Below are positions 2,102-42,381 of a DNA stretch of 64,000 nucleotides, one piece after another. Each line of letters opens with the position of its first letter. The stretch's first letter is position 1. Position numbers and translations under genes: made by a program. The DNA is taken from contig JBDTCS010000080.1 of assembly GCA_039923455.1 (NCBI GenBank), forward strand, positions 12,079-76,078. The letters run 5' to 3'. The DNA comes from Candidatus Kapaibacterium sp. GTDB lineage: Bacteria > Bacteroidota > Ignavibacteria > Palsa-1295. The notes under the pieces are model-generated. The model was not told the DNA's origin. It saw nothing but the letters and a program-made list of their open reading frames with translations, and did not search any database.

Positions 2102-3022
2102 TTAAGAGTTCTTGCCCGTGATTGTGCTGATCAGACGTTCCACGTAGCTTTTGTGTTCTTCGCTGACCGCATCATCTTGCTTCACCTGAGCTCCGGTAAG
2201 GCCAAAGCGGCGCTCGCGTTTTTGGTAATCGCGGATCGCGTCATATAAATTCTCTCGACGGAAATCGGGCCAGTAGGTATTGGTTACATATATCTCGCTA
2301 TATGCAAGCTCCCAAAGCATAAAGTTCGAAAGCCGAAGTTCACCGGAGGTGCGAATCAGCAGATCGGGATCGGGTAAGTTCGCAGTTGTGAGATACGAGC
2401 GAACAAGATTATCGGTAATATCTTCGGGCGAAATTTTTCCACGGCGAACATCGAGTGCAAGCGTTTGCATTGCACGAACAAGGTCCCAGCGTCCGGAGTA
2501 TGAAAGTGCGAGTGTGAGTGTGAGGCGTGTGTTGTCGGAGGTTTTTTCCATCGCCTGAAAAAGCTCACGCTGTACTTCTTTCGGCAATGCGTTCGTCTGT
2601 CCGATTGTATTCAGCCGCACACCATTCTCCCGCATTTCATCCAGCTCTTCACGCAACATTTTAAGTAGCAGACGCATAAGCATGGAAATCTCTTTGCGCG
2701 GACGTTTCCAATTTTCCGTGCTGAAAGCATACACCGTTAAATATTCCAAACCCAACTCTCGGGATGCGCGCGTAGCATCACGCACACTTGCAATTCCGGC
2801 TTGATGCCCCGCAATGCGTGGCAGGCCGCGCTCTTCAGCCCAGCGACCATTTCCATCCATGATCACAGCGATGTGATTCGGTACTTTACCGGCGCGAAGA
2901 AGCTCCTGCTGTACTTCTTTATCCTCGGCCGTCTGTTTGTATGGTGTGCTTCTAAGAAATCGGCTCAAGAGTGGTTTGGGCTTTATTGATTCAGAATGCT
3001 TCAAGTTCCGAAACGTATACAA
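2102..3022 (-). CDS. uppS: Undecaprenyl diphosphate synthase (cis-prenyltransferase)
   Basis: Motifs HIAVIMDGNGRWA, YAFSTENWKRP and RTSGELRLSNFMLWELAYSEIYVT closely match E. coli UppS. The track start at 3022 is a TTG, so the true start is probably internal and is uncertain. Confidence 0.85.
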   Translation of the reverse strand: MYTFRNLKHSESIKPKPLLSRFLRSTPYKQTAEDKEVQQELLRAGKVPNHIAVIMDGNGRWAEERGLPRIAGHQAGIASVRDATRASRELGLEYLTVYAFSTENWKRPRKEISMLMRLLLKMLREELDEMRENGVRLNTIGQTNALPKEVQRELFQAMEKTSDNTRLTLTLALSYSGRWDLVRAMQTLALDVRRGKISPEDITDNLVRSYLTTANLPDPDLLIRTSGELRLSNFMLWELAYSEIYVTNTYWPDFRRENLYDAIRDYQKRERRFGLTGAQVKQDDAVSEEHKSYVERLISTITGKNS

Positions 3023-5820: not shown

Positions 5821-7848
5821 ATGCTCCGACTAAATAAGGAGATCATCATCAATGCTCAAAGTGATGATGAGATCCGAATAGCAATAACCGAGAACAACCG
5901 CCTGGTTGAGCTCTTTATCGAAACACCTGAGACCGAGCGCCATGTGGGCGATGTCTATCTCGGAAAAATCGCAAAGGTGATCCCTGGCATGAACGCCGCC
6001 TTTGTGAATGTAGGCTTGGAACAAGATGCCTTCCTCCATTTCTCCGACGTCGGCGATTCATTCGAATCCGCCACAGCCTTCATCTCCGGCGAAGATGCCG
6101 AGATGACCGATGATGACGACGAAGAAGATGAGGACAATGATTATCTCGTGGAAGAAGGCGCTACTGCCGCTGAGCAGAAAGTACTTCGTCCGCGAGGCCC
6201 CCGACCTGGTGCACCATCACGCGGGCAAGATCGCAACGGACGCGGACGCGCACCTGCTGCACCCGCAGAAGAGAGCGGCCCAAAGCCACTCGAACTTCGA
6301 TTGGCCAGTCAAAAAGAGGACAAGCCAGCACCGGCACCCGCATTTCGCGGACCGCAGAATAACAATTTCCCAACGATGCTCCAGCCCAACGTTACGCTGG
6401 AATCAGGGAAAAATATTCTCGTGCAAGTAACACGTGAAGCGTTCGCCAATAAAGGCGTGCGCGTTACGAGTCGCATTTCTTTGCCTGGCAGATTTCTGGT
6501 GCTCGTTCCATTCGAACCGGGTATCGGCATCAGCCGTAAAGTCTATTCGGTTCGCGAACGTAGCCGCTTGCGCCGCATCGTGCGTTCGCTTAAGCCACGT
6601 GAACTTGGCGTGATCATTCGAACGGTCGCGGAGAACAAAGAAGAATCTGCGCTTCGTGAAGATCTCGAGAAGCTTCTCGAACAATGGCGCGAGATCGAGA
6701 AAAAGATTAAAGAGGGCAACTCGCCACAACTCGTGTATCAGGATACGAGCCTCACGTCGAGCGTCATGCGTGACCTCTTCACGCCGGACATCACGCGCAT
6801 CATCATCGATTCGAAAAAGATGCATCGTGAAGTACTCGATTACGTCGAGTGGGCTGCGCCGAACTTGACGGGCACCGTTGAACTTTATCGCGATACGCAA
6901 CCGCTATTCGATTCGTTTAATATTGAGCGACAGATCGAGCAGACGCTCGTGCGTAAAATACCCTTGCCATCTGGCGGATATCTTTTCGTTGAACATACCG
7001 AAGCAATGGTGGTCATCGATGTCAACTCAGGCCGCTATGCTGCAAGACGTGAGCAAGAGCTGAACTCGCTCAAGACGAATCTGGAAGCTGCACGTGAAAT
7101 CTCAAGACAATTGCGTCTGCGAGATATCGGCGGTATCATCGTTGTCGATTTTATCGACATGAACGAAGAGCGCAACAAAAAGAAAGTCTATGATGAGATG
7201 AAGAAGGAGTTTCGCAAAGATCGCGCGAAATCATCCATACTTCCACTCACCGAATTCGGCTTGATGCAGATCACGCGTCAGCGTATTCGTCAGTCAATCG
7301 TGCAGGCACTCTCGGAGAAGTGTCCGGTTTGCGCGGGTACAGGCATGCTCGTTTCCAAGACGACGATCATCAAACAGATCGAACGCTGGCTCGAGCGCTT
7401 CCGCGCAGAATCCGGTGAGCGCAGGCTGGTACTATCGGTCCATCCGACGCTTGGAGATATGCTAAAATCAGGACTGATGTCGCCACTGCGTCATTTACAG
7501 ATGAGTTACTTTGTTCGCATCAAGCTTGAACTTGACGAAGCACTCACAGGCGATGACTTCCGATTTTATAGTCCGAAGCAGAAGAAAGATATCACCGAAG
7601 AATTTTCTTCCGGTGCAGAATCAACCGATCGCCCATACACGGATGAAGAAGATGATCTCGGCGAGAGCCGCATCAGTCACGTCGAAGATGCTCCTGTCAG
7701 TTCCGGCGGATTGCAACTCAAGCGCAAGAATGATCTTCCGGAAGCACCGGAACATGACACACACGGAGCGCCGACGAACAATCGTCGAGGACCACGTGAA
7801 CAGCGTGGCGGAGGCCGTCGTGAGTCGAGGGATCGCGGTAGAAAGTAA
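5821..7848 (+). CDS. Ribonuclease E/G family endoribonuclease (S1 domain, catalytic core, C-terminal Arg-rich tail)
   Basis: N-terminal S1 domain (GDVYLGKIAKVIPGMNAAFVNVG). RNase E/G catalytic core (GGYLFVEHTEAMVVIDVNSG, LRDIGGIIVVDFIDM). Zn-link-like CPVCAGTG. Acidic insert (DDDDEEDEDNDY) and an RG-rich C-terminus. 675 aa. Confidence 0.85.
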   Translation: MLRLNKEIIINAQSDDEIRIAITENNRLVELFIETPETERHVGDVYLGKIAKVIPGMNAAFVNVGLEQDAFLHFSDVGDSFESATAFISGEDAEMTDDDDEEDEDNDYLVEEGATAAEQKVLRPRGPRPGAPSRGQDRNGRGRAPAAPAEESGPKPLELRLASQKEDKPAPAPAFRGPQNNNFPTMLQPNVTLESGKNILVQVTREAFANKGVRVTSRISLPGRFLVLVPFEPGIGISRKVYSVRERSRLRRIVRSLKPRELGVIIRTVAENKEESALREDLEKLLEQWREIEKKIKEGNSPQLVYQDTSLTSSVMRDLFTPDITRIIIDSKKMHREVLDYVEWAAPNLTGTVELYRDTQPLFDSFNIERQIEQTLVRKIPLPSGGYLFVEHTEAMVVIDVNSGRYAARREQELNSLKTNLEAAREISRQLRLRDIGGIIVVDFIDMNEERNKKKVYDEMKKEFRKDRAKSSILPLTEFGLMQITRQRIRQSIVQALSEKCPVCAGTGMLVSKTTIIKQIERWLERFRAESGERRLVLSVHPTLGDMLKSGLMSPLRHLQMSYFVRIKLELDEALTGDDFRFYSPKQKKDITEEFSSGAESTDRPYTDEEDDLGESRISHVEDAPVSSGGLQLKRKNDLPEAPEHDTHGAPTNNRRGPREQRGGGRRESRDRGRK

Positions 7849-7870
7849 TACTATCGATATAAATTGGAAA

Positions 7871-7902
7871 CACCCTTTGAGTAATCAAAGGGTGTTTTTT
7901 TT
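7871..7902 (+). terminator. Rho-independent terminator after the RNase E/G gene
   Basis: Stem caccctttga / tcaaagggtg, loop gtaa, then TTTTTTTT. Confidence 0.75.
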
Positions 7903-8296
7903 GCGCACGAATCGAATTACGCTTGCAGCAACGTATTCCTACACTTGCAGTAGATGCTTTCCGTCTGATTACACTTCCATGAGTTCTCTTTCATTTCACT
8001 CTGATTGGAAATGACTTAGCGAAAATAATTTGTAGTGAAACGAGAACAATTGATTTCGTACAGAATTCGACCGCTCGAATTCATGATTTTTTGGCATTGC
8101 GAAATCTCTGGCACAGAAATGCGATATACTCTTTACAGCCAATCTGAGAAAGGCAGAATGTTTAAGTTGATGAGCAATCGTCCTTACATACTACCAATCA
8201 AAGAAAAGCTACAATGTGGTGAAGGTGAAAGAAGCGCATATGGCCTGAAGTGAATAACTTCGGGCTGTATGCGTTTAAAGCTTTTTGATTCGTGAG

Positions 8297-11200
8297 CTAA
8301 AAGTTTTGACGAACAAAGAAGTTCATTCGGAATGCATACTTGAGTCCGCTTTCCGGTTGACTGACATAAATAGGAAAATCGAGTTGGAATTCCGTGCGAT
8401 TGGGGTCGATACCATAATATGGAATGTTGAATCGCAGACCTGCGCCGAAATCATAGCGCATGAGTTCGCTCAAGTTGCAGGTGCAAAAGCGATCGGTCAC
8501 GAGTCCCGCATCGCCGAAGAGTGTGAGGCCCGTCAGGTTAAAGATCGGACCGAGGTATGGAATTTCACGCAAGAGTGCAAACGGGAAAAGCGAATAATTG
8601 CCAAGCTCAAATTGCGCACTTCCGGCAACGCGGCCGAAAGGATTTCCTTCCATCATGTATCCTCGAACAAGCGGCCCTGAGACCGCCGGATTCCGTATCT
8701 TACTGCCTTCGTGTGTTCCGAAGTTCGATGCATAGATATCTTCGAACGATTGCAAGAGCGAAGGCGAAGCAAGCCGATACATCGATTCGACCGGCAGATC
8801 AAGACTGTTCGCTGGCTGAGAGCTTCCTCCGAATATTCTCAGATATGCATTCCACTCTGCACCTAACTCCTGCCGAATATTCATCGCACCGGAGAGCTTT
8901 GTATAAGTTGTTCTGGGGTCTCCAAGTCCCGCTTCGGCATCTACGCCGAAACTGAATGAAGTAGATCCACCCTCGGTGTGAAATGCATAACCAAGTTCGA
9001 GTCGGTTGAGCGCGACGCCATCTTTATCATACTGTGACCAATCATAACCCAACTGAAGGTTATGATGTGGTGTCGAACCGGTCGGTGTGGAAAAAATTTG
9101 ATCGAATTTTATTCCAGCGTACGATCTGTTATCGGTGTGAATCGTAGCAAGATCAATATGTGTCTCCGGCGAAATCGCATCGAGTATTGTGTTATACTCT
9201 AGAACTCCACCAATCGAAACGCTCTCCGCTTGCGGTACATGCACACGAAGCCCAAGCGCAAGTCTATCCGTCCGTTCAAGAAAACTCCCGAGCACCGTCC
9301 AGCCATACGTTCGATTAAAAATAAACGGAGCGGTGCGAACGGAGTATGCATCGATCGGCTTGATATCCCGGCGATATTTTGGAAAGAGCTCTACATCCAT
9401 CTTCGGCAACCACGAACTGGAGTTGTTCAGCCTGTTAGTCTCGAGTAATTCACCGGATGGATTAATATCAACGTGCACCGGATGCTTTGCGAATGTATAA
9501 TGATACTTCCGCACTCGTGCCACGGTGCGAAGCCAATCATCAACCGGTATCCACTCTTGCTGTGTCGTGCCATCGGCAAATGTAAAGACGAGATCGATTG
9601 GCATGACACCACGCTCGACACGCTCGATCGTGACATCGGCCTCGTTCGCCTTTACATCGAAATCTGCGATCTTGTAATCCAGCTTCCACGTTTTTCGAAA
9701 CCACTCATCAAAGAACCAACGCAAATCCCCGCGGGCCTTGATGCGTGATGTATCGCCTTCCTTCCGATCGATCTCCTCGGCAACTTGCCTGAGATCATCG
9801 GGATAGGGATGCTTCATGTGCCAGCGATCATAATAGGTATGCAAGAAATGATCGAAGGCCGTATCTCCCATCGCATAACGTAGCATGAAAAAGATCGCAC
9901 CAGTCTTGCCATAGGTGGCTGTGGCGTACGTACTATAATCAAGATACATATCTGCTTTGGTCTCCGGAGGCTCTGCTCGACCGGAGAGATCCATTTCGAG
10001 CGCCCATCGATAATTACTCGTCCGTTCGTCGTCCTGAAATCCAAGACCGGGTGCATTCGAATTATTGTAGCGTCCGAACCATGCTTCAAATGCAAGCGTG
10101 GTTATGAACGTATTAAATCCCTCATCCATATATCCATAGTCGGTCTCGTTCGAGCCCATCATCATTGGGTACCACTCGTGACCTATTTCATGGATCATCG
10201 TGGCTTGCGGATAATGGTATTCTTCGCCGTGAGCATACGGACCGATGAAAACAATGCCGGGATACTCCATGCCACCTTCATATGTTTCACACATGAAGAG
10301 ATTTGGATAGAGATACTGTCCCTCATGTTTGGAATTGAATTGCACGGTGTGCTCGGCAATACGTGCAGCATCCTTCGCCCAAAATGCACGAGAGTTCTCC
10401 CAGTAGAATGCATGATGCATCGTGCCATTCTTGTAGATAGCATCCCAGATGTAGCCTTCATCAGCTACCCACGCAAAATCTCGAACGGAATCAGCATGAA
10501 AGCGCCATGTGACGAGAGATGTATCCGTGCCACGCGCGAAATTTGCATGGTCGCTGATATGCACAAGTGAATCAGGATGTGAGCGCGCAAAATCGAGATG
10601 CTGACGAACATCACTCGTGAGTATCTCCGGATTTTTTTGCCAACCTGTGCTGATCACTGTTGTTAGTGACGCTGGCAAATGCAGCGTGACATCATACATA
10701 CCATAATCGGTATAGAACTCACCCATTCCGATATATTGATCGGGATGCCAACCATGATTATCATACACGCAGATCTGCGGATACCATTGCGCTGTTGCAA
10801 AATTGCGAGCGCCTTGATCGTGATAGCCCCACGTTGAGCGAATTCCAAAGTTCGGCATTTGCCCGACCCACTCGAAACTAAAAACACGTTCCGCACCCGG
10901 GGCAAGCGGCACCTCAAGCTTCAAGTGCATGATCGTGTTATCTACTTCGATCTCGGAAGTATTATCGACATTGCCACTTGCGAGCAGCTGCCCGAACTTC
11001 TTGATCGTCGTACCTTTTGAGCCATACTTATCATTCTCGTCGTGATCGCGATTCGGTGCTGTCTCGCCATAGCTTCCATTTTTGAAGAGATTCCAATAGA
11101 GATGGAAATAGACTTCGTGGAGCGTGTCCGGTGAATTATTTTTATAGAAGAGCGAGCCTTGTCCATGTAACTCCGGGGCACCGGGCAGATCGACCATCGT

Positions 11201-11344
11201 CGCATCGAGTTGATAATAGACGTGCTGCTGAAAATACGGTTCAGCGGCGCTCTGCGCTCGTGCGCTAGTGGCATACAAGGCAGTCATACTTAATAGCATG
11301 AGGAGTATCCCAGACCAGATGCGCGAGAATTTGATTTCGATCAC
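8297..11344 (-). CDS. M1-family zinc metallopeptidase fused to a C-terminal outer-membrane beta-barrel-like domain
   Basis: Signal peptide. GxMEx-like GGMEYPG. HEIGHEW...YMDEGFNTF (HEXXH-X18-E, the M1 signature). The last ~350 aa are rich in alternating amphipathic strands and end in ...FRMNFFVRQNF (terminal Phe, an OMP signature). The start is GTG at 11344; an alternative ATG lies 15 codons in. Confidence 0.7.
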   Translation of the reverse strand: MIEIKFSRIWSGILLMLLSMTALYATSARAQSAAEPYFQQHVYYQLDATMVDLPGAPELHGQGSLFYKNNSPDTLHEVYFHLYWNLFKNGSYGETAPNRDHDENDKYGSKGTTIKKFGQLLASGNVDNTSEIEVDNTIMHLKLEVPLAPGAERVFSFEWVGQMPNFGIRSTWGYHDQGARNFATAQWYPQICVYDNHGWHPDQYIGMGEFYTDYGMYDVTLHLPASLTTVISTGWQKNPEILTSDVRQHLDFARSHPDSLVHISDHANFARGTDTSLVTWRFHADSVRDFAWVADEGYIWDAIYKNGTMHHAFYWENSRAFWAKDAARIAEHTVQFNSKHEGQYLYPNLFMCETYEGGMEYPGIVFIGPYAHGEEYHYPQATMIHEIGHEWYPMMMGSNETDYGYMDEGFNTFITTLAFEAWFGRYNNSNAPGLGFQDDERTSNYRWALEMDLSGRAEPPETKADMYLDYSTYATATYGKTGAIFFMLRYAMGDTAFDHFLHTYYDRWHMKHPYPDDLRQVAEEIDRKEGDTSRIKARGDLRWFFDEWFRKTWKLDYKIADFDVKANEADVTIERVERGVMPIDLVFTFADGTTQQEWIPVDDWLRTVARVRKYHYTFAKHPVHVDINPSGELLETNRLNNSSSWLPKMDVELFPKYRRDIKPIDAYSVRTAPFIFNRTYGWTVLGSFLERTDRLALGLRVHVPQAESVSIGGVLEYNTILDAISPETHIDLATIHTDNRSYAGIKFDQIFSTPTGSTPHHNLQLGYDWSQYDKDGVALNRLELGYAFHTEGGSTSFSFGVDAEAGLGDPRTTYTKLSGAMNIRQELGAEWNAYLRIFGGSSQPANSLDLPVESMYRLASPSLLQSFEDIYASNFGTHEGSKIRNPAVSGPLVRGYMMEGNPFGRVAGSAQFELGNYSLFPFALLREIPYLGPIFNLTGLTLFGDAGLVTDRFCTCNLSELMRYDFGAGLRFNIPYYGIDPNRTEFQLDFPIYVSQPESGLKYAFRMNFFVRQNF

Positions 11345-11514: not shown

Positions 11515-12126
11515 ATGGATAATCAGACGAGACCAGTGCCTAAACCAAAAAAGCGAAACACAACGTGGCTCTACGTTGTGATATTCGTAGTGGTTTCAAC
11601 CGTGCTTATTTTGCACGAGTGGCACTGGCGGTATGATTCACCGTTCCGATATGTCGCCGAGCGTCAGTTGTTGTGGGGGCCTAAATCGGAGAAGCGCATG
11701 GTGCATATTGAGCAATTCACCCTGACTCCGGTCGATAGCTCTCGCCGCGAATTTAAAGATCCGCGAAACGGCGTGACCGATGTAACCATTTGGCAGCTGG
11801 ATCGCCCCGATACACTTCGCTTTAAAGCTCACGGACATTATTACTCCGGATTTCTTCCGGCAAAATTTACCAACGATGGCTCGGCGCAACTCTTTCTGAT
11901 CCCAAACACCGAACAAGATCTCGCGCTAGGTGTGGGGGAATTGATCTATCTTGATAGTGCGCAGAAGCTTGCCGTGCTGCACATCGAGAGCACCAATGTT
12001 GGCGATGCGGACAAAGACGGGGTGTTCGAAATTTATGATCGAGCGCTCGGCACGTTCGAACACTTGGATCCCATGCAAGGCAAGTGGATTCCGGTCGTGA
12101 TCAAGCCTGCGCCAAAGCAAGAGTAA
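11515..12126 (+). CDS. Hypothetical membrane-anchored protein
   Basis: N-terminal transmembrane helix WLYVVIFVVVSTVLIL. No recognisable motifs. 203 aa. Confidence 0.4.
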   Translation: MDNQTRPVPKPKKRNTTWLYVVIFVVVSTVLILHEWHWRYDSPFRYVAERQLLWGPKSEKRMVHIEQFTLTPVDSSRREFKDPRNGVTDVTIWQLDRPDTLRFKAHGHYYSGFLPAKFTNDGSAQLFLIPNTEQDLALGVGELIYLDSAQKLAVLHIESTNVGDADKDGVFEIYDRALGTFEHLDPMQGKWIPVVIKPAPKQE

Positions 12127-20667: not shown

Positions 20668-20895
20668 CCTCAAAGCCAAGTGTAGATTCAATTCTATATA
20701 TATCTTACATCAAAACGAGCTAAATGCTCCCTATAATAAGACACTTTTCGGACGCAGTTTGCACAGTTGTAGCTCGAATCATTTTTTCGGGCAACCTCAC
20801 ATCCGAAACTCCGAGCTATTCTCCGCGTAGTTTTGCAGTTCAGCGGCAGAACGTCCCAACGCTTGGGAGCATCACACAATCAGCTTTTTTCGCTT

Positions 20896-22308
20896 ATGCA
20901 AAGGTATTTTCTTTCCTCGTCACTATTCCTGCTCCTTCTGGCAGGATCAGTTCTTGGCACGACTAATTCGTGCGGACAAACTTTGAAAAAGCAGCGAATG
21001 ACACCCGTCACGAGCAAAAGTATTTTTCAAAAAAAGACTTTAGCTAACGGACTGGAGATCATCGTAGTCGAGAATCATCTCGCACCGATCGCGACCGTCG
21101 TCTATGTTGCCAAGAACGGATCATTCACCGAACCGGATGAATTCGCCGGACTCTCGCATTTGTACGAGCACATGTTCTTCAAGAAGAACAAAGTGATCGC
21201 AAGCGAAGATGACTTCAACGAACGCAACCGCGAACTCGGCATGTCGAACAATGCATCGACAGGTGAAGAGGTCGTCGAGTATCATTTCACGATGCCGGCA
21301 GCACAACTCAAAGAAGGCATTGAGTTTATGTCATTCGCGATCAAGTCACCCGCGTTCGACTCCGGTGACATCGAGCGTGAACGTGAAGTTGTGCTCGGTG
21401 AGTTCGATCGGAACGAGGCCGATCCGTTCTTCGCACTATCTCGTGCGACAGACAGCGCAATGTGGGGCGATCTGCTTGTGCGAAAGGAGCCGCTCGGTCA
21501 ACGACCTGTGATCAAAGCCGCGACGCCTCCGAAGATGTTTGCGATACAACACAAGTTCTATATTCCGAATAATTCTGCGCTCCTGATTTCCGGTGATGTC
21601 GATCCGCAACAAGTCTATAAACTTGTTGAGCAATATTTAGGTGATTGGGAACGCGGACCTGCCCCGTTTCCAACATATTTGCCGCCACCTTTTGCGCCAC
21701 TGAAAAAACAGCTTATCGTTCGAGAGGCGCCGGATGTGCCGATTGTGGCGGTGTCACTCAACTACTTCGGACCGAGTGTGGGCAAAGACGATGAGAATAC
21801 GTATTGTGCCGATCTATTCTCGACGATCGTTAACAGCAGCACTTCGCATCTTTACAAAGCGCTCGTCGATTCCGGACTTGCGCAAGTTGTTAGCATGAGC
21901 TACTACACCCAACAGAATACCGGACCAATCACGATACAACTTCAGGCGGTACCATCGAAGGCAAAGCCGGCAATCGCGAAATTGCAGGAGGAGATGACAC
22001 ATTGGATGTCACCGGATTACTACACCGATCAGGAAATGCATAACGCAGCCGAGAAACTTGCAATTCAACGATTATATGATCAAGAGAACCCAGCGAGTTT
22101 CATAACATCATCCGGTTCGTTCGCTTGGGCGATCACTGGTCTTGATTACTACACGCATTACATCGAAAATGTACGGAGCGTGACGCGAGAGCAGCTCAAT
22201 CAGTATCTCGCAAAATATGTAATCGGCCAACCGTACGTTATGGCTGTCGGGGCAAGCAAGCCAACGCTCGATGCACTCCAACTCAAGGCAACGGAGGTAT
22301 TGAAATGA
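20896..22308 (+). CDS. M16 (pitrilysin/insulinase) family zinc peptidase, catalytic subunit
   Basis: Inverted zinc motif HLYEH (HxxEH) followed by NASTGEEVVEYHF. Signal peptide from the ATG at 20896. Confidence 0.8.
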   Translation: MQRYFLSSSLFLLLLAGSVLGTTNSCGQTLKKQRMTPVTSKSIFQKKTLANGLEIIVVENHLAPIATVVYVAKNGSFTEPDEFAGLSHLYEHMFFKKNKVIASEDDFNERNRELGMSNNASTGEEVVEYHFTMPAAQLKEGIEFMSFAIKSPAFDSGDIEREREVVLGEFDRNEADPFFALSRATDSAMWGDLLVRKEPLGQRPVIKAATPPKMFAIQHKFYIPNNSALLISGDVDPQQVYKLVEQYLGDWERGPAPFPTYLPPPFAPLKKQLIVREAPDVPIVAVSLNYFGPSVGKDDENTYCADLFSTIVNSSTSHLYKALVDSGLAQVVSMSYYTQQNTGPITIQLQAVPSKAKPAIAKLQEEMTHWMSPDYYTDQEMHNAAEKLAIQRLYDQENPASFITSSGSFAWAITGLDYYTHYIENVRSVTREQLNQYLAKYVIGQPYVMAVGASKPTLDALQLKATEVLK

Positions 22309-23654
22309 GAACTACACAAATCACCAATCTACAATCTTTCATGAAGCGTCGTAGCGGCCTACTCACTGTTCCCCTACTTGCGGTTTTCTTGCTATGTGCA
22401 GTCACACCGACGGTTCAAGCACAAGTGCAGGATTTCAAAGTCGATGGTATTCACGTAATCTTGCAGCCGTCAAAGGCCAATCAGATCGTCTCGGTGCTTG
22501 TTGGCATCGAAGGTGGGTATGGTCGCGGAGAAACGGAGAATCCGGCATTGGCGGATATCACCGCCAATCTAACAATCGCAAGTGGCTCGGAAAAATATCC
22601 GAAGAACACCTATCGTGATGAACTCTCGCGACTTGTCAGCTCGATCTCCGCAGGTGCCGGTTCGTACAGCACCACGTACTCACTCTCTTGCGTCAGACCG
22701 AAGTTCGATGAATCTTGGAATATTTTTTCGGATGTCATTCGAAATCCACTTTATGACCAAGACGAACTGGATCATTTGAAGGAGCAATTGGTCACCGAAA
22801 TTCTTGGCCGTAAAGCTGAACCCGAAGGCTACGCATCGTTCATGGTCGATAGCATTTGGTCTGCCGGGTATCGCACAGGACGTATCGTCGAGGCAGTAGA
22901 TGTTCAGGCCGTCACGACAGAATCTGCGAAGGCATTTCACGACAAAGAGATCGAGCGTTCGCGCATGACGATTGTTGTGGTCGGCGATATCACAGCGGAT
23001 ATTTTGAAAGCGAAAATCCACAAGGATTTTGGGCCTGTCAAAGCAGGCACGTATAAGCATCAACCGTTCGACAAGATACTCGGCAATCAGCGCACAGATC
23101 TGGTTGTCGATGATCGTGTCGTTCCGACAGCCTATATCTTTGGGCGTTATCGTGGCATCGGCCGCAAAGATGCGGACTACTTTCCGTTGCTCATCGGTGC
23201 ACTGATCCTTGACGACAGACTCTACGAAGAGGTGCGCACGAAACGCAATCTGAGCTATGCACCTCATTCGAGGCTCGGCGGTCGCGGTGGTAATTATTAC
23301 GGCTCGATCAGCGTGTCGACTACGATGCCGGACTCTACGATCAATGTCATCACTCGCGAGCTGAATAAAATTCGCACCGAAGGCGTGACACCAAAGGAGT
23401 TGAAAGACAGACGTGCCGAGTTCATAACGGAATTCTATATGGCTGGGCAGACAAATCTCGCCCAGGCGTTCCGATTGTTCAACGCAGAGATGGAGACGGG
23501 CAGTTGGAAGAACGCGCTCAACGTGCTACCGGAGCTAAACAAGGTCACCGTTGCTCAGGTGCAGGCCGCGATGGCGAAATACCTGCACAATGTACTATGG
23601 ACGGCAGTTGGTGAGCGCTCCAAAATGGATCGGAAGCTCTTTCTCTTCCAATAG
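22305..23654 (+). CDS. M16 family peptidase, non-catalytic partner subunit
   Basis: Overlaps the upstream gene (ATGA). Signal peptide. M16 fold-like sequence lacking HxxEH, which is typical of a heterodimeric partner. Confidence 0.7.
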   Translation: MRTTQITNLQSFMKRRSGLLTVPLLAVFLLCAVTPTVQAQVQDFKVDGIHVILQPSKANQIVSVLVGIEGGYGRGETENPALADITANLTIASGSEKYPKNTYRDELSRLVSSISAGAGSYSTTYSLSCVRPKFDESWNIFSDVIRNPLYDQDELDHLKEQLVTEILGRKAEPEGYASFMVDSIWSAGYRTGRIVEAVDVQAVTTESAKAFHDKEIERSRMTIVVVGDITADILKAKIHKDFGPVKAGTYKHQPFDKILGNQRTDLVVDDRVVPTAYIFGRYRGIGRKDADYFPLLIGALILDDRLYEEVRTKRNLSYAPHSRLGGRGGNYYGSISVSTTMPDSTINVITRELNKIRTEGVTPKELKDRRAEFITEFYMAGQTNLAQAFRLFNAEMETGSWKNALNVLPELNKVTVAQVQAAMAKYLHNVLWTAVGERSKMDRKLFLFQ

Positions 23655-25858: not shown

Positions 25859-27976
25859 ATGAATCGATACAAAACACGCACAACGAATATGAAAGCGCAA
25901 CACTTCACTCCAAAACTATTTCCGCAGCACTCGAGTAACTCCACGCAGTCTGAGACTCTTACACGTGCAAGCTCCGGCTTGATCTTTACACTATTCGCTT
26001 TATGTATGCTCTATATCGGTGTCCCACCGGTTTTGGCACAGACAGGTGCACTGCAGCTGAGCGTACACATTGCCCCAACAGGTTCGCCACTCAAGAAGGC
26101 TTACGTACGATTACTTGAGACGAACCAGTTAGCAATCACCGACGCGAACGGAATCGCTTGGATCAGACGCATTGCACCAGGAAGCTATACAGTTGAAGTA
26201 AAGCGGAAAGGATTTGGCACGCAGCGCTTCACGACTGTCGCAATTGACGCCGGGGACACGACGTTAATCGCAATCGCATTGGTGAGCGGACTCACCGACA
26301 CGATCTGCGCGACTGCATACGCAAAGACAGATAATATTTCCCGATTTGCAATCTCGGAGACCAACGAATCCAGTGCTGACTACGCCCCAATTGAGAAGCG
26401 TCGAGCTAACGAGAGTGGCGGTTCCGTTGTAGCAAACCGCGGATCAGTTACGGAGAGACAACAAATACTCCGCCTAACTCCCGGGGTCATTAGCGATGAC
26501 GCAACAATGGTCAGACGGTATATGCCGAATCCTGCGAGCAACGAGGAATATCATAAGCTCAATGATAACGAATATCTTGCAGCAAGAACGAATCCACTCT
26601 CGACATTCTCGATCGACGTGGACGTCGCCTCGTACGCTAATATTCGTCGCTTCCTAACTGCCAACAGCGCACCGCCGATCGATGCAGTTCGAATCGAGGA
26701 GATGGTGAATTATTTCAAATATGATTATCCGCAACCGACCGGTAAAGATCCATGCACGATCACGACCGAAGTTGCCGCGTGTCCATGGAACAGCGCACAC
26801 TCCATTATCGGTATCGGAGTGCAAGCTCGAGAAATCGCAAAGCAAGATCTACCGCCGTCGAATCTTGTTTTTCTGATCGATGTCTCTGGCTCGATGATGC
26901 CCGATAACAAGCTGCCGTTACTTAAGCGTGCGTTTCGGTTGCTTGTAAAGGAACTGCGCGCACAGGATCACGTCGCGATCGTTGTCTATGCCGGCAACGC
27001 CGGACTCGTACTGCCATCGACTTCCGGTACGCAAAAAGAGAAGATCATCTCCACGCTTGAACATCTCGAAGCTGGCGGATCGACGGCAGGCGGTGAAGGC
27101 ATTCTCCTTGCGTACAAAATCGCAAAAGAAAACTTCAACGCAAATGGCAACAACCGAGTCATCCTCGCGACTGATGGAGATTTCAACGTTGGACTTACCG
27201 GCGAAGGCGATCTTGTTCGCATGATGGAAGAGAAACGCAAAGAAGGAGTCTTCCTTTCTATCCTTGGCGTCGGCGAAGAAAACCTGAAGGACTCTCGTAT
27301 GGAGCAGATCGCAGATCAAGGAAACGGCAACTACGCGTACTTGGATAATATTCTCGAAGCGGAGAAAGTGCTCGTGACACAAATGGGTGGCACACTTTAC
27401 ACGATTGCAAAGGATGTTAAGATACAGGTCGAATTCAATCCTACAAAAGTCAAGGGTTATCGATTGATCGGCTATGAAGATAGAATGTTAGCAAAAGAAG
27501 ATTTTAATAATGACCAGAAAGATGCCGGTGAACTTGGCTCTGGACATACCGTGACTGCACTCTATGAATTGATACCGGCGAGTTCGAAAGAGGAAGTGCC
27601 GCAGAGCTCGGTGGATTCGCTAAAGTATCAAAAACCGGAGGCGCTCCCGACGGTGAGCACGTCGAACGAGCTACTGACCGTGAAACTGCGCTACAAAGAT
27701 CCTAAGGATACTGTGAGTAAGCTGATGGAGCATGTTGTCGCAAGCGCAGACGTTGCGAACATCAACGCGGCATCGGATAATTTACGATTCAGCTGTGCGG
27801 TTGCAAGCTTTGGTATGCTTTTGAGAAATTCAGAATTCAAAGGAGATGCCACATTAAGCTCGATCAAAGCTCTCGCCGATGGTGCTCGTGGACGAGACGC
27901 CGAAGGCTATCGCGCAGAGTTCATCCAAATGCTCAAACGTTACGAACTCATTCAAAGCGAGGCTGCTGCCAAGTAG
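25859..27976 (+). CDS. Secreted von Willebrand factor A (vWA) domain protein with an N-terminal CarboxypepD_reg-like domain (YfbK-like)
   Basis: Long n-region then an h-region GLIFTLFALCMLYIGVPPVLAQ. Ig-like domain (ITDANGIAWIRRIAPGSYTVEVKRKGFG). vWA MIDAS motif (LVFLIDVSGSM...ATDGDFN). Confidence 0.75.
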   Translation: MNRYKTRTTNMKAQHFTPKLFPQHSSNSTQSETLTRASSGLIFTLFALCMLYIGVPPVLAQTGALQLSVHIAPTGSPLKKAYVRLLETNQLAITDANGIAWIRRIAPGSYTVEVKRKGFGTQRFTTVAIDAGDTTLIAIALVSGLTDTICATAYAKTDNISRFAISETNESSADYAPIEKRRANESGGSVVANRGSVTERQQILRLTPGVISDDATMVRRYMPNPASNEEYHKLNDNEYLAARTNPLSTFSIDVDVASYANIRRFLTANSAPPIDAVRIEEMVNYFKYDYPQPTGKDPCTITTEVAACPWNSAHSIIGIGVQAREIAKQDLPPSNLVFLIDVSGSMMPDNKLPLLKRAFRLLVKELRAQDHVAIVVYAGNAGLVLPSTSGTQKEKIISTLEHLEAGGSTAGGEGILLAYKIAKENFNANGNNRVILATDGDFNVGLTGEGDLVRMMEEKRKEGVFLSILGVGEENLKDSRMEQIADQGNGNYAYLDNILEAEKVLVTQMGGTLYTIAKDVKIQVEFNPTKVKGYRLIGYEDRMLAKEDFNNDQKDAGELGSGHTVTALYELIPASSKEEVPQSSVDSLKYQKPEALPTVSTSNELLTVKLRYKDPKDTVSKLMEHVVASADVANINAASDNLRFSCAVASFGMLLRNSEFKGDATLSSIKALADGARGRDAEGYRAEFIQMLKRYELIQSEAAAK

Positions 27977-37018: not shown

Positions 37019-37441
37019 ATGAAAGCATCACTTCGACTTGATCACGATCTGAGGTTTATCGGCAGAAGCGAGACCGGTCATGAGACAGCATTCGATACTA
37101 CCGTTGCCGGTGGCGGCTCAGACTCCGCCGGGAGTCCGATGGAGATCTTGCTCGAAGCCGCGAGCGCATGCGCATCGATGGATGTATTGATCATTCTGAG
37201 AAAAAAGCGCAGAACCGTCACGGCGCTAAACATCGAACTCGATTCCGAACGGGCAACGACGCATCCAAAAGTGTTTGTGAAGATACACATGTCATTTAAG
37301 GTGACGAGCCCGGACGCTACGCAAGAAGAACTTGAGCGGGCGGTCGATCTTTCCATGACAACCTATTGTAGTGTCGGCGGGTCGTTGCGTAAGGGTGGCT
37401 GCGACATCACTTGGGACGCGCAGATCATTCGGCCAGACTGA
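37019..37441 (+). CDS. OsmC/Ohr family peroxiredoxin-like protein
   Basis: Size, paired Cys residues (ASACASMD, TTYCSVG) and overall pattern fit OsmC. Confidence 0.7.
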   Translation: MKASLRLDHDLRFIGRSETGHETAFDTTVAGGGSDSAGSPMEILLEAASACASMDVLIILRKKRRTVTALNIELDSERATTHPKVFVKIHMSFKVTSPDATQEELERAVDLSMTTYCSVGGSLRKGGCDITWDAQIIRPD

Positions 37442-37571
37442 GCATTACGGTTCGCCAGTTTATCTCTCTCTTCTTTTTCAACTCTCGATTTGGACTGATC
37501 ACTCAAATAATTCAACAATATATTCGCTTGAGCTTATGGCCTTAGCGGTCTCTCTCCTTGACATTTCCGAA

Positions 37572-39812
37572 ATGAGAGTAGCAACGCTTACCTTACTTTT
37601 GCTTGTAGTATTATCCCTCACGGGCGAAGCAGCCGCGCAAACGGATAGCTTGCAAAGTCGGAGCGAGACCATCCGAGGTAAGGTGGTCAGCGTGCAATCG
37701 CACCTTCCGATACCACGCGCACGCGTGGCTATCGAAGGGACGAAGCTCGGTGCGATCGCTTCGGAAGAAGGCGAGTATCGCATTGCGAAAGTACCGGTTG
37801 GTCACTACACACTTCGCGCATCGTCGACAGGATACACGCAGGCGACGCAAGAGGTCGTTGTGCGTTCGGCACATCAAGTCGTGCTCGATTTTGAATTAGC
37901 AGAAAAAGCCGTTCAAGGTGATACGCTGACTGTTGTCGGTTCTGAAGCACTCGCTACGATCAACCGCATTGCTGTCGTCAGTGCAACACCATTCAGCGTT
38001 GAAGATGTGAACCGTTACGCTGCGGCGTTTCAGGATCCCTCACGCATGGCGGAGAATTTTGCAGGAGTCTTTGGTCGAGGTACGTCCAACAATTATATCG
38101 TTGTGCGTGGTGGATCGCCGAGTGAGTTGCTTTGGCGATTGGATGGTATTGATATACCAAATCCGAATCACTTCGGTAAAAGCGGATCGAGTGGCGGACT
38201 GATCAGCGCGATCAATAGCGCAACACTTGGGAACAGCGATTTTTTTACGGGCGCATTCCCAGCCGAATACGGCACACGACTCAGTGCGGTCTTTGATCTA
38301 CACACGCGTAACGGCAATACCGAACGACCTGAAGGCCGAGCGGAGATCAGTTTGAATGGGCTGGAAGCTTTAGGTGAAGCACCGCTTCCGGGTATTGCGG
38401 GCGGTTCGGTACTTGTGGGCTATCGCCACTCGACGCTTAGCGTGCTGCGTCAGATCGGACTCTTGAACTATGAAAAGCTTCCGAACTTTGATGATGCCTC
38501 GATGAAGCTACATGTTCCGATCGGTAGTTACGATGAGATTAATGGCACCGGATTATGGGGCACCGCAGCTCTGGACATAAAGAACAGCACGGATCAAGAG
38601 CTCGGTGCGGGCTCCGGAATTCTGGTGGGTGGTCTCGATTGGCAGCACATTTTTTCTTCTGAGGTAATAAGTCATTTGCGGATTAATCACGTCGAGAATA
38701 GATTTGATGAAGGGTTGGGTGACGGAACAGAGCGGACCAAGATAGCTTACAATACTGCAAAAGCGGAGCTCACGTTCACACCGAGTCTCGTGCATAGTTT
38801 TGAGATCGGCGCAACTGCACAGCACGCAATATTTGATCTGAGTCAGAGTGGTGCGCGTGTCTTTGACACCTCGCAGCATGCCAACTTTTACATGGCGTAT
38901 CTAAATTGGAATTGGCACGTGCTTCCGCAACTCACGCTCAATTCCGGAATCTACAGCCAATTTATTTCTCTGGATACCGGCAGTTCTTATGAGCCACGCG
39001 TTTCTCTGGAATGGGCACCGAGTGAGGAACATGCATTCGCGATTGCGTTCGGAGTGCATCGTCAGCCGGAGCCAATCGAGTTCACGCAAGCGCTGCATTA
39101 TGTCGCAGGTTATACCTATCGACCTGAACCAGACTTAATGCTTAAGGCAGAAGCATACCTGAAAGATTATTCTCATGTTCCCGTGCATCGGTACTCGCTG
39201 GATAGTTACTCATATCTCAACGAAGGATTTGCACAACGAAGGGATAACGCAAGCACGATAAGCACCGGCGTTGGGCGAGCATACGGTGCGGAGTTCACGC
39301 TGCTCAAACATTATGCTTCAGGTTATTATGTTACAGCAACGGCATCGCTTGTCCGGCAGGAGTTTGCAGGTTCGGATAACATCTGGCACTTTGGTTCATT
39401 CGACAATCGGTATATCCTAAATCTTGTTTCGGGTTATGATATTGCGCTCAGCACATCATCGACGCTCACACTTAGCGAAAAATTTACTGTCGCCGGTGGC
39501 GGAATGTACACACCGATCGATCTCGTCGCTTCACAAACGATTGGCCGAGAGGTCGCGGATTCCAGCAACGCTTATGGTGCGCGCAATCCCGCATACGTAC
39601 GTCTTGACGTGAACGCGGAATTCAGATTCAATTGGAGCGCCTCCGCACTCACGCTCTATGTGTCGATACTGAATGCACTGAATATTAAGAATATCACCAG
39701 CCGCTACTACGAGGAGACATTCGATCCGATCCGTGGAGGTGTGATCGGCAGCATTCATGAAGATTCGGATCTGCCTATTCTCCCAATCGTTGGAATTCGA
39801 TTCGAATTCTAA
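37572..39812 (+). CDS. TonB-dependent receptor-like outer-membrane protein with an N-terminal CarboxypepD_reg-like domain
   Basis: Signal peptide from the ATG at 37572. Ig-like domain (GKVVSVQSHLPIPRARVAIEGTKLGAIASEEGEYRIAKVPVGHYTLRAS), plug-like region, long barrel, terminal ...GIRFEF. Confidence 0.55.
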   Translation: MRVATLTLLLLVVLSLTGEAAAQTDSLQSRSETIRGKVVSVQSHLPIPRARVAIEGTKLGAIASEEGEYRIAKVPVGHYTLRASSTGYTQATQEVVVRSAHQVVLDFELAEKAVQGDTLTVVGSEALATINRIAVVSATPFSVEDVNRYAAAFQDPSRMAENFAGVFGRGTSNNYIVVRGGSPSELLWRLDGIDIPNPNHFGKSGSSGGLISAINSATLGNSDFFTGAFPAEYGTRLSAVFDLHTRNGNTERPEGRAEISLNGLEALGEAPLPGIAGGSVLVGYRHSTLSVLRQIGLLNYEKLPNFDDASMKLHVPIGSYDEINGTGLWGTAALDIKNSTDQELGAGSGILVGGLDWQHIFSSEVISHLRINHVENRFDEGLGDGTERTKIAYNTAKAELTFTPSLVHSFEIGATAQHAIFDLSQSGARVFDTSQHANFYMAYLNWNWHVLPQLTLNSGIYSQFISLDTGSSYEPRVSLEWAPSEEHAFAIAFGVHRQPEPIEFTQALHYVAGYTYRPEPDLMLKAEAYLKDYSHVPVHRYSLDSYSYLNEGFAQRRDNASTISTGVGRAYGAEFTLLKHYASGYYVTATASLVRQEFAGSDNIWHFGSFDNRYILNLVSGYDIALSTSSTLTLSEKFTVAGGGMYTPIDLVASQTIGREVADSSNAYGARNPAYVRLDVNAEFRFNWSASALTLYVSILNALNIKNITSRYYEETFDPIRGGVIGSIHEDSDLPILPIVGIRFEF

Positions 39813-42244: not shown

Positions 42245-42381
42245 AACAAAAGAAAATATATGCGCAATACAGGGATGCGCAAAAATTACCGAGTGCAGAA
42301 GAGTAGCCACTACTGACGAAATAGGATCGGAAATTGTTTCAGCAATCTACCCCCGAAATGTAGTAACGTCCTAGAGCAAGA

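What the first reader, a model, noticed from the sequence alone, without database searches (positions are those of the whole stretch)
8297..11344. M1-family metallopeptidase fused to a C-terminal outer-membrane beta-barrel-like domain
The N-terminal ~650 aa carry the M1 signatures (GGMEYPG; HEIGHEW...x18...E; YMDEGFN). The last ~350 aa are Gly/aromatic-rich alternating strands ending in ...FFVRQNF, as in OMP/Omp85-type barrels. This is not the usual Por CTD seen on the neighbouring T9SS cargo. An aminopeptidase-N-like enzyme built into, or autotransported through, its own barrel would be an unusual surface-display architecture.
Basis: partly seen in the sequence, partly recalled or inferred. 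Interest (0 to 1): 0.55.

Follow-up and report, generated by a model that had tools for sequence, protein, structure and literature searches.

The report
M1 aminopeptidase fused to Omp85 barrel
This gene encodes a zinc aminopeptidase permanently joined to a BamA-type outer-membrane barrel, a widespread but undescribed architecture in Ignavibacteria/Bacteroidota-group bacteria that probably tethers the enzyme to the inner face of the outer membrane, not the cell surface.

Summary
ORF 8297-11344 (-) encodes a 1015-aa protein with a Sec signal peptide. Residues ~37-641 form M1 aminopeptidase domains I-III, with every catalytic residue invariant in 58 homologs. Residues 667-1015 are predicted to form a 16-stranded barrel.

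The barrel is Omp85-type, not a generic porin and not a soluble sandwich or T9SS CTD:
- All 50 top Foldseek hits are Sam50, BamA or TamA.
- A 60%-identical homolog passes Pfam's Omp85 threshold.
- The family keeps the L6 VRGY and beta13 FxDxG motifs and a terminal Phe.

There is no POTRA domain. The barrel takes the place of M1 helical domain IV. Short, unfused I-II-III relatives dominate in other phyla. The fusion forms at least 297 clusters at 50% identity, annotated only as "M1 family metallopeptidase". I found no paper describing it.

Most likely mechanism (inferred): the barrel anchors a periplasm-facing aminopeptidase under the outer membrane, as was shown experimentally for PlpD. Surface display by autotransport is possible but less likely. 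I rate it a new variant of a known kind, of moderate interest.

The parts
8297..11344 (-). Whole ORF, 1015 aa plus stop: the M1 peptidase-Omp85 barrel fusion protein
   Evidence: P0001 is 100% identical, but its gene call starts at Met16.
11255..11344 (-). Sec (type I) signal peptide, aa 1-30 (MIEIKFSRIWSGILLMLLSMTALYATSARA|QS). There is no lipobox Cys.
   Evidence: Read directly from the sequence. Homologs all have comparable signal peptides ending ...AQ. AF2 predicts a helix at aa 8-31. The cleavage site is inferred.
10400..11236 (-). M1 domain I (N-terminal beta-sandwich), aa ~37-315
   Evidence: Strands in the full-length AF2 model. Foldseek aligns ~640-670 columns to IRAP, ERAP1 and PepN. 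Boundaries are approximate.
9695..10399 (-). M1 catalytic (thermolysin-like) domain II, aa ~316-550
   Evidence: Pfam PF01433, E 2.6e-12, aa 337-548. The family profile hits PDB M1 enzymes at E 2e-15.
10259..10276 (-). GGMEYP, aa 357-362: a variant of the GXMEN exopeptidase motif (Asn replaced by Tyr)
   Evidence: Aligned to GGMENP of LTA4H and ColAP. G358, E360, Y361 and P362 are invariant in 58/58 sequences.
10121..10192 (-). Zinc site HEIGH-X18-E (H385, E386, H389, E408)
   Evidence: All four residues are invariant in 58/58 sequences.
9911..9913 (-). Y478, the catalytic tyrosine
   Evidence: Aligns with Y383 of LTA4H in the PYEKG motif. Invariant in 58/58 sequences.
9422..9694 (-). M1 domain III-like small beta-sandwich, aa ~551-641, ending in the conserved NRLNN (637-641). 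It is not a POTRA domain.
   Evidence: Six strands and one short helix in both AF2 models. The domain is shared with unfused relatives, whose matches end at aa ~641. No POTRA Pfam hit.
9347..9421 (-). Linker, aa 642-666, with conserved P647 and D665-A-Y667
8300..9346 (-). Omp85-type 16-stranded beta-barrel, aa 667-1015, ending in Phe
8630..8815 (-). Long loop between strands 11 and 12 (L6 equivalent), aa 844-905, carrying VRGY at 893-896 (nt 8657-8668)
   Evidence: Conservation: R894 46/58, G895 43/58, Y or F at 896 in 54/58. Equivalence to the Omp85 L6 (V/I)RG(F/Y) motif is inferred from its position and sequence.
8504..8518 (-). FGDAG, aa 943-947, on strand 13: the Omp85 (F/G)xDxG motif
   Evidence: F943 56/58, D945 55/58, G947 51/58. 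HMMER aligned this stretch with FWDVG of a BamA (9pxj).

Best explanation
The gene encodes a Sec-exported, outer-membrane-anchored zinc aminopeptidase. An M1 enzyme made of domains I-III has lost the usual helical domain IV. In its place it carries a POTRA-less, 16-stranded Omp85-superfamily barrel. [quoted passage not shown] In Omp85 barrels strand 1 starts on the periplasmic side, so the ~600-aa enzyme module hangs from the inner face of the outer membrane. There it trims N-terminal residues from peptides in the periplasm, for example oligopeptides that have just crossed the outer membrane. Shown here: the ORF, M1 membership with an intact active site, the Omp85 fold and motifs of the barrel, the absence of POTRA, and the wide distribution of the fusion. 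Inferred: outer-membrane insertion, the periplasmic orientation, aminopeptidase activity and the physiological substrates.
For: M1 module:
- Pfam scores above its threshold.
- The family profile hits PDB M1 enzymes at E 2e-15.
- Foldseek gives E 5e-22 to IRAP, ERAP1 and PepN over ~650 columns.
- E360, H385, E386, H389, E408 and Y478 are invariant in 58/58 sequences, and Y478 aligns with LTA4H Y383.

Barrel:
- Both AF2 models predict 16 strands, with a 62-residue loop between strands 11 and 12.
- All 50 top Foldseek hits are Sam50, BamA or TamA.
- PF01103 matches 8 of 31 family C-termini. In full-length scans P0004 (60% identical to the query), P0046 and P0053 score above the 24-bit cutoff, at 25.1, 34.1 and 33.3 bits.
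- VRGY, FxDxG and a terminal aromatic residue are conserved.

Periplasmic orientation:
- The loop pattern of the model fits canonical Omp85 topology, with L6 after strand 11 and a conserved 'PF' turn after strand 12 as in BamA.
- Unfused relatives (~620-650 aa, from Gemmatimonadota, Chitinophagaceae, Planctomycetota and Caulobacter) have plain Sec signal peptides. They have no T9SS CTD or other outer-membrane-crossing signal.
- This organism does use T9SS CTDs for other proteins.
- PlpD, the only studied enzyme-Omp85 fusion, has a periplasmic enzyme domain (PMC11116518).
- The full-length pTM of 0.86 suggests the enzyme packs rigidly against the barrel.
- No conserved neighbouring gene exists that could be a secreted partner.
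Against: - No experiment or coordinate-level inspection fixes the orientation. I could not view the model's coordinates or PAE.
- The query's own barrel has no Pfam Omp85 hit at E<=1. The sequence-profile match to BamA in PDB is weak (E 0.063).
- HMMER's weak alignment placed BamA's VRGF opposite a different stretch (SPxExF) than the family's RGY, so which motif corresponds to the L6 tip is not settled.
- The GXMEN Asn is replaced by Tyr in the whole family, and domain IV is absent. Specificity could therefore differ from classical aminopeptidases.
- The 25-residue linker before strand 1 is long enough in principle to thread a barrel lumen.
Confidence: 0.6

Rival explanations
1. Surface display by self-export, a type V-like autotransporter. 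The Omp85 barrel, alone or as a hybrid barrel with BamA during assembly, translocates the unfolded N-terminal M1 module to the cell surface. The module stays tethered there by the aa 642-666 linker running through the lumen, and digests extracellular peptides for nutrition.
Against: There is no POTRA domain, which all characterised Omp85 translocases need to recruit substrate. The cargo is a ~600-aa globular alpha/beta zinc enzyme, not a beta-helix. Unfused relatives carry no outer-membrane-crossing signal. The organism already has T9SS for surface proteins. The PlpD 'type Vd' precedent was overturned experimentally (PMC11116518). AF2 predicts a compact, confident whole-protein arrangement (pTM 0.86).
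Confidence: 0.2
2. A working Omp85 machine with a built-in protease. The barrel keeps an insertase or lateral-gate activity, or binds beta-signals of client proteins. The periplasmic M1 module replaces POTRA as a substrate-handling or quality-control domain, degrading stalled or misassembled outer-membrane proteins in the manner of BepA at BAM.
For: Omp85 functional motifs are retained. Heinz & Lithgow proposed periplasmic quality control for another Omp85-enzyme class (PMC4104836). Strand 1 of PlpD binds a beta-signal-like segment (PMC11116518). The barrel sits where domain IV normally caps the M1 active site.
Against: M1 enzymes with an intact GXME motif are exopeptidases that need a free N-terminus, so they are poorly suited to clearing stalled barrel proteins. 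A canonical BamA is encoded separately. No conserved partner genes were found. The same peptidase module works without any barrel in most lineages.
Confidence: 0.12
3. The C-terminal region is not a membrane barrel but a soluble beta domain (an ERAP-like domain IV substitute, a beta-sandwich or a CTD variant).
For: The query itself has no Pfam hit in aa 549-1015 at E<=1. The simple alternating-hydrophobicity test did not separate these strands from soluble sandwich strands.
Confidence: 0.02

Closest known systems
PlpD / FplA (patatin-like Omp85 proteins, formerly 'type Vd secretion')
   Same: A single polypeptide with an N-terminal hydrolase and a C-terminal 16-stranded Omp85 barrel. It is a paralog of BamA and is not known to be an assembly machine. 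In PlpD the enzyme domain is periplasmic and the Omp85 scaffold serves as a platform (PMC11116518).
   Different: The enzyme here is an M1 zinc aminopeptidase (~600 aa, three domains), not a ~300-aa patatin lipase. No POTRA domain lies between enzyme and barrel. The taxa are Ignavibacteriota, Chlorobi, Bacteroidota and Rhodothermales, not Proteobacteria and Fusobacteria. Dimerisation was not examined.
BamA / TamA / Sam50 (Omp85 insertases)
   Different: There are no POTRA domains. Sequence identity is only 9-15%. The query falls below Pfam's Omp85 threshold. The genome has its own canonical BamA next to uppS.
'noNterm' and alternative-N-terminus Omp85 classes (Heinz & Lithgow 2014; Leptospira noNterm Omp85s)
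   Same: These are Omp85 barrels that lack POTRA or carry non-POTRA N-terminal domains (WD40, metallophosphoesterase). That survey noted expanded Omp85 diversity in Bacteroidetes/Chlorobi and Ignavibacteria (PMC4104836).
   Different: That survey has no M1-peptidase class; the word 'peptidase' does not occur in its text. Its 'Metallo' class is PF00149.
Four-domain M1 aminopeptidases (PepN, ERAP1, IRAP, PfA-M1, APN) and three-domain LTA4H / ColAP
   Same: Domains I, II and III superpose (Foldseek E ~5e-22, ~650 aligned columns). HEXXH-X18-E, the GXME Glu and the catalytic Tyr are conserved.
   Different: Helical domain IV is absent and is replaced by a membrane barrel. GXMEN reads GGMEY in the whole family. 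The protein has a signal peptide and is envelope-located, not cytosolic or a type II membrane protein.
Unfused 'GMEYP' M1-like peptidases (~620-650 aa) of Gemmatimonadota, Chitinophagaceae, Flavobacterium, Planctomycetota and Caulobacter
   Same: They share the I-II-III module and end just after the NRLNN-type motif. They are 28-33% identical to the query.
   Different: They have no barrel. Some carry other C-terminal add-ons of ~85 or ~215 aa and unknown function.

Membership tests
Peptidase family M1 (gluzincin aminopeptidases) | HEXXH-X18-E zinc-binding motif | tested here: met
   H385, E386, H389 and E408 are present and invariant in 58/58 homologs.
Peptidase family M1 (gluzincin aminopeptidases) | GXMEN exopeptidase motif | tested here: inconclusive
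   GGMEYP aligns with GGMENP of LTA4H and ColAP. Gly, Met and Glu are kept, but Asn is replaced by an invariant Tyr. The functional consequence is unknown.
Peptidase family M1 (gluzincin aminopeptidases) | Catalytic tyrosine downstream of the zinc site | tested here: met
   Y478 aligns with LTA4H Y383 and is invariant in 58/58 sequences.
Peptidase family M1 (gluzincin aminopeptidases) | Profile match above the curated threshold, and the M1 fold (N-terminal sandwich plus thermolysin-like domain) | tested here: met
   PF01433 scores 47.2 bits against a 27.7-bit cutoff. Foldseek gives E 4.9e-22 to IRAP, ERAP1 and PepN over ~650 columns.
Peptidase family M1 (gluzincin aminopeptidases) | Metal-dependent aminopeptidase activity | not testable with these tools
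   This needs an enzyme assay of aa 31-641.
Omp85/TpsB superfamily | 16-stranded transmembrane beta-barrel structurally closest to Omp85 proteins | tested here: met
Omp85/TpsB superfamily | Pfam PF01103 (Omp85 / Bac_surface_Ag) profile match | tested here: inconclusive
   The query has no hit at E<=1. Family members do: 8 of 31 C-termini match. In full-length scans P0004 (60% identical to the query) scores 25.1 bits against a 24-bit cutoff, P0046 34.1 and P0053 33.3. Homology is therefore established through close homologs.
Omp85/TpsB superfamily | Conserved L6 loop with the (V/I)RG(F/Y) motif between strands 11 and 12 | tested here: met
   The loop is 62 residues (844-905) with VRGY at 893-896. 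Conservation: R 46/58, G 43/58, Y or F 54/58. Caveat: the weak HMMER alignment to BamA put VRGF opposite another segment. Lumen insertion could not be checked.
Omp85/TpsB superfamily | (F/G)xDxG motif on strand 13 | tested here: met
   FGDAG at 943-947 lies on predicted strand 13. Conservation: F 56/58, D 55/58, G 51/58. HMMER aligned it to FWDVG of a BamA (9pxj).
Omp85/TpsB superfamily | [quoted passage not shown] | tested here: not met
   No POTRA Pfam hit in the query or in 31 family C-termini. The segment before the barrel is an all-beta sandwish-type fold shared with unfused M1 relatives and superposing on M1 domain III. The protein is thus a POTRA-less member of the barrel superfamily, not a canonical BamA, TamA or TpsB.
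Type V secretion (autotransporter; type Vd in particular) | Passenger domain shown to reach the cell surface or the medium | not testable with these tools
   This needs protease-shaving or labelling experiments. The Vd archetype PlpD was itself shown to be periplasmic (PMC11116518).
Type V secretion (autotransporter; type Vd in particular) | Passenger - POTRA - 16-strand barrel order | tested here: not met
   The order enzyme then barrel is present, but POTRA is absent.
T9SS cargo | C-terminal Por_Secre_tail / CTD sorting domain | tested here: not met
   No PF18962 hit in the query or in unfused relatives. The positive control in the same window, ORF 58262..60670, hits PF18962 at 4.6e-7.

The most novel reading that the evidence does not exclude
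The barrel is more than an anchor. Because it takes the place of M1 domain IV, which normally caps the active-site chamber, its periplasmic mouth could form a closed chamber with the catalytic domain. Peptides passing the outer membrane through or beside the Omp85 barrel would then be fed straight into an aminopeptidase. In the alternative version the barrel exports the enzyme, giving a POTRA-independent, Omp85-based surface-display route. Either reading would be a new function for the Omp85 scaffold.
Probability: 0.15. Interest if true: 0.8.

Novelty: new variant of a known kind. Interest (0 to 1): 0.52.

Why it matters
Omp85 proteins are usually viewed as POTRA-bearing machines that insert or translocate other proteins. 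PlpD recently showed that the scaffold can instead carry a periplasmic enzyme. This family would be a second, independent and much larger case: at least 297 clusters at 50% identity across Ignavibacteriota, Chlorobi, Bacteroidota and Rhodothermales. It has a different enzyme class and no POTRA at all. That supports the idea that the Omp85 barrel has been reused repeatedly as an outer-membrane platform. It also gives a natural test case for how a POTRA-less Omp85 barrel with a 600-aa N-terminal domain is assembled, and for where peptide trimming takes place in the envelope of proteolytic FCB-group (Fibrobacteres-Chlorobi-Bacteroidetes) bacteria. On the practical side, current annotation ("M1 family metallopeptidase") misses the membrane domain in most members, because Pfam PF01103 fails on the query and on most relatives.

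Tried and rejected
- Pfam and NCBIfam on the query gave nothing for the C-terminal 470 aa. Homologs and structure prediction were needed.
- A sequence profile of the C-terminal region against PDB gave only weak BamA hits (E 0.063 and 1), plus a spurious capsid protein at E 0.035. This is not convincing alone.
- The full-length profile against PDB was swamped by M1 hits.
I used the full-length alignment instead.
- Alternating hydrophobicity of the 16 strands (mean face difference 2.56) did not differ from soluble sandwich strands of the same protein (2.66). It is uninformative about membrane embedding.
- A search for conserved neighbours across 14 fusion loci found no partner shared beyond close relatives. 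The four-locus cluster was antisense shadow ORFs inside the gene.
- No TpsA-like, TamB-like or transporter partner is present. The window neighbours are housekeeping genes: RNase E/G, an S1-domain protein and a thioesterase.
- The C-terminal extensions of unfused relatives were scanned with Pfam: no hit outside Peptidase_M1, so no T9SS CTD. By eye the ~85-aa extension does not look like a CTD either.
- Three literature searches found no description of an M1-Omp85 fusion. A domain-combination preprint that mentions both domains does so in unrelated contexts.
- I could not inspect model coordinates or PAE. The side of the barrel on which AF2 places the enzyme remains unread.
Full report
**Observation**

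The quoted motifs are all present:
- GGMEYPG at aa 357-363
- HEIGHEW at 385-391
- YMDEGFN at 405-411
- the C-terminal ...FFVRQNF at 1009-1015

It is a real, conserved gene. The homolog search returned 4775 proteins at E<=1e-3. The best 120 are mostly ~1000-1050 aa and align over 95-100% of the query. Where a source names them, it is only "M1 family metallopeptidase/aminopeptidase", from Kapabacteria, Ignavibacteriae, Kryptoniota, Chlorobiota and Bacteroidota MAGs.

The N-terminus is a typical type I Sec signal peptide (…ATSARA|QS) with no lipobox. Homologs have the same kind of signal. One metagenomic gene call (P0001, 100% identical) starts at Met16 instead. The GTG start gives the more canonical positively charged n-region.

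**The peptidase module**

Pfam Peptidase_M1 matches aa 337-548 at 47.2 bits, against a cutoff of 27.7. A profile of 58 homologs hits solved M1 enzymes at E down to 2e-15. The full-length AlphaFold2 model has pLDDT 88.0 and pTM 0.86. It superposes on IRAP, ERAP1, ERAP2, PepN, PfA-M1 and APN with Foldseek E ~5e-22 over ~640-670 columns.

That span covers M1 domains I (N-terminal sandwich), II (catalytic) and III (small sandwich). The all-beta segment at aa ~557-627 is therefore M1 domain III, not a POTRA domain.

The active site is intact. In pairwise HMMER alignments GGMEYP lies opposite GGMENP of LTA4H and the cold-active aminopeptidase, HEIGHEW opposite HEISHSW, and TYGKTG opposite PYEKG, whose Tyr is LTA4H Y383. 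G358, E360, Y361, P362, H385, E386, H389, E408 and Y478 are invariant in all 58 aligned homologs.

Two features depart from classical M1 enzymes:
- The GXMEN Asn is a Tyr in the whole family.
- The helical domain IV is missing.

**The C-terminal domain**

The query's last 470 aa have no Pfam hit even at E<=1. The family does show the relationship. Eight of 31 homolog C-termini hit PF01103 (Omp85), best E 1.6e-8. In full-length scans three members score above the 24-bit cutoff:
- P0004, 60% identical to the query, at 25.1 bits
- P0046 at 34.1 bits
- P0053 at 33.3 bits, covering model positions 6-298 of 325

AlphaFold2 on aa 545-1015 with a 31-sequence alignment gave pLDDT 82.8 and pTM 0.74. After the domain III sandwich the model has exactly 16 long antiparallel strands, from 667-676 through 1008-1013. 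Most connections are short. The exception is a 62-residue, partly helical loop between strands 11 and 12. That is the position of loop L6 in Omp85 proteins.

Structure searches agree:
- Foldseek against PDB returned only Omp85 proteins in the top 50 (Sam50, BamA, TamA), with E 9e-8 to 4e-6.

Two sequence hallmarks of the superfamily are present and conserved:
- VRGY at 893-896 inside the L6-like loop (R in 46/58, G in 43/58, Y or F in 54/58)
- FGDAG at 943-947 on strand 13 (F in 56/58, D in 55/58, G in 51/58)

HMMER aligned the second motif with FWDVG of a BamA. The family ends in an aromatic or hydrophobic residue (F 39, L 11, W 4 of 58), as expected for a BAM beta-signal.

One caveat applies. 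The weak HMMER alignment to BamA placed BamA's VRGF opposite a different family segment (SPxExF). The exact L6 correspondence is therefore inferred, not shown.

**What is missing**

No POTRA domain is detectable by Pfam in the query or in any of the 31 C-termini. The predicted structure leaves no room for one. Domain III ends at the conserved NRLNN (637-641), and 25 residues later strand 1 begins. The protein therefore belongs to the Omp85 barrel superfamily but is not a canonical BamA, TamA or TpsB.

The genome has its own BamA. The left end of the window (minus strand, directly downstream of uppS) encodes the signal peptide, POTRA repeats and barrel start of a BamA that runs off the window.

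**Evolutionary context**

Among the best 80 loci:
- About 57 encode short proteins (~620-650 aa) that stop right after the NRLNN-type motif. They come from Gemmatimonadota, Chitinophagaceae, Mucilaginibacter, Planctomycetota, Rhodothermales and Caulobacter.
- Three Flavobacterium-type loci carry an ~85-aa extension.
- Four Mucilaginibacter or Chitinophaga loci carry a ~215-aa extension of unknown type.
- Fifteen carry the barrel. They come from Ignavibacteria, a Chlorobiaceae MAG, Cytophagia, Flavobacteriales, Flavipsychrobacter, a Chryseobacterium-labelled MAG and Rhodothermales.

One Ignavibacteriae locus has two tandem fusion paralogs. None of the unfused forms tested has a T9SS CTD.

A profile of domain III plus barrel, searched against 1.84 billion cluster representatives, found 2466 proteins at E<=1e-3, 826 at <=1e-10 and 297 at <=1e-30. 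Most of the best 150 are 980-1100 aa long. The fusion is thus a sizeable, old family in the FCB (Fibrobacteres-Chlorobi-Bacteroidetes) group, derived from a secreted, soluble three-domain M1 enzyme.

No gene neighbour is conserved across fusion loci. In the window the gene stands alone between a convergent RNase E/G gene and a divergent small ORF.

**Mechanism**

The following points are shown here:
- The protein has an intact M1 active site.
- It has an Omp85-type barrel with the family's functional motifs.
- It has a Sec signal peptide.
- It has no POTRA and no CTD.

The rest is inferred. The barrel is presumably inserted by BAM. In every solved Omp85 protein strand 1 starts at the periplasmic face. 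The loop pattern of the model keeps that register: L6 follows strand 11, and a conserved "PF" turn follows strand 12 as in BamA. The simplest topology therefore leaves the enzyme in the periplasm, held against the inner face of the outer membrane.

Three further observations support this:
- The ancestral unfused enzymes have only Sec signals, so by default they are periplasmic in diderm bacteria.
- This organism marks surface or secreted proteins with T9SS CTDs, for example ORF 58262..60670. This protein has none.
- For PlpD, the only studied enzyme-Omp85 fusion, Hanson et al. 2024 (PMC11116518) showed experimentally that the patatin domain stays in the periplasm. They argued that pushing a folded enzyme through a closed Omp85 barrel is energetically implausible.

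The high whole-protein pTM (0.86) suggests a fixed enzyme-barrel arrangement. I could not read the coordinates to see which face is involved.

The likely role is trimming of N-terminal residues from periplasmic peptides close to where they enter. Confidence by layer:
- Architecture: about 0.9.
- Periplasmic orientation: about 0.6-0.65.
- Physiological role: lower.

**Rivals**

- Surface display by self-export is about 0.2 likely. It is not excluded, because TpsB relatives are real translocases and the 25-residue linker could span a lumen. The lack of POTRA, the nature of the cargo and the PlpD precedent argue against it.
- A functional Omp85 machine with a built-in quality-control protease is about 0.12 likely. 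Heinz & Lithgow (PMC4104836) proposed this for another Omp85-enzyme class. An exopeptidase is a poor tool for that job, and the same module works without a barrel in most lineages.
- A soluble C-terminal domain is about 0.02 likely and is effectively refuted.

**Comparison with the known, and novelty**

The nearest functional analogue is PlpD/FplA: an enzyme plus an Omp85 barrel. The nearest structural relatives of the barrel are Sam50, TamA and BamA. The nearest relatives of the enzyme are the unfused GMEYP-type M1 peptidases and, among solved structures, IRAP, ERAP1 and PepN.

The 2014 survey of Omp85/TpsB architectures lists ten subfamilies, including WD40, metallophosphoesterase, patatin, lipoprotein and noNterm forms. 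It has no peptidase class. Three full-text searches found no description of an M1-Omp85 protein. Databases name these proteins only as M1 peptidases.

I therefore rate it a new variant of a known kind: a second, POTRA-less, enzyme-bearing branch of the Omp85 superfamily. Interest is moderate at 0.52. It is a clean and widespread architecture that current annotation misses, and it bears on how the Omp85 scaffold has been repurposed. The concept already has a precedent, and the mechanism here rests on inference.

Noticed in passing
window 1..~1830 (-), downstream of uppS at 2102..3022 (-): This stretch encodes the N-terminal ~600 aa of a canonical BamA (signal peptide, POTRA repeats, start of the barrel) that runs off the left end of the window. 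It follows the uppS-bamA arrangement I recalled as typical of the Bacteroidetes/Chlorobi group, which is why I looked here (recalled, not tested). The M1-Omp85 protein is therefore a paralog, not the cell's BamA.
   Followed up: partly
window 58262..60670 (+): An 802-aa protein with a C-terminal Por_Secre_tail (PF18962, E 4.6e-7). The rest of the protein had no Pfam hit at E<=1e-4.
   Followed up: partly
window 40397..42310 (-) and 20833..23654 (+): More envelope or secreted peptidase candidates sit in the same window: an M61 glycyl aminopeptidase with a weak, sub-threshold PDZ_2 match (23.9 bits against a 27-bit cutoff), and an M16 (insulinase-like) protein at 20833..22308 overlapping a second ORF (22305..23654) that I did not scan. 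The organism looks rich in peptidases.
   Followed up: no
L001 2476..5790 and 5971..9090 (Ignavibacteriae MAG PLYO01000045.1): Two tandem paralogs of the M1-Omp85 fusion (1105 and 1040 codon stop-to-stop frames). Both have GGMEYP and HExxH motifs and the barrel. The window has only one copy.
   Followed up: partly
L058 5797..8427 (Mucilaginibacter), L066 (Chitinophaga), L038/L052/L078 (Flavobacterium-type): Unfused relatives of the peptidase module carry other C-terminal add-ons after the NRLNN-type motif. One is a ~215-aa domain and another an ~85-aa domain. Neither has a Pfam hit. The position after domain III seems to be a hot spot for domain accretion.
   Followed up: partly
window 11299..11344 (-): The start codon is ambiguous. 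The identical metagenomic protein P0001 is called from Met16 (1000 aa). The GTG at 11344 adds a K/R-containing n-region that makes a more canonical signal peptide.
   Followed up: partly
window 11515..12126 (+) and 54473..56218 (+), 46512..47873 (-): Three sizeable ORFs (203, 581 and 453 aa) have no Pfam hit at the thresholds used. The first is transcribed divergently from the M1-Omp85 gene.
   Followed up: no
window 25859..27976 (+) and 37371..39812 (+): The first is a YfbK-like VWA protein with an N-terminal CarboxypepD_reg domain. The second is a CarboxypepD_reg protein with a borderline TonB-receptor Plug match (23.6 bits against a 23.9-bit cutoff), possibly a TonB-dependent receptor; no barrel domain was detected. 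Both are typical FCB-group envelope proteins.
   Followed up: no
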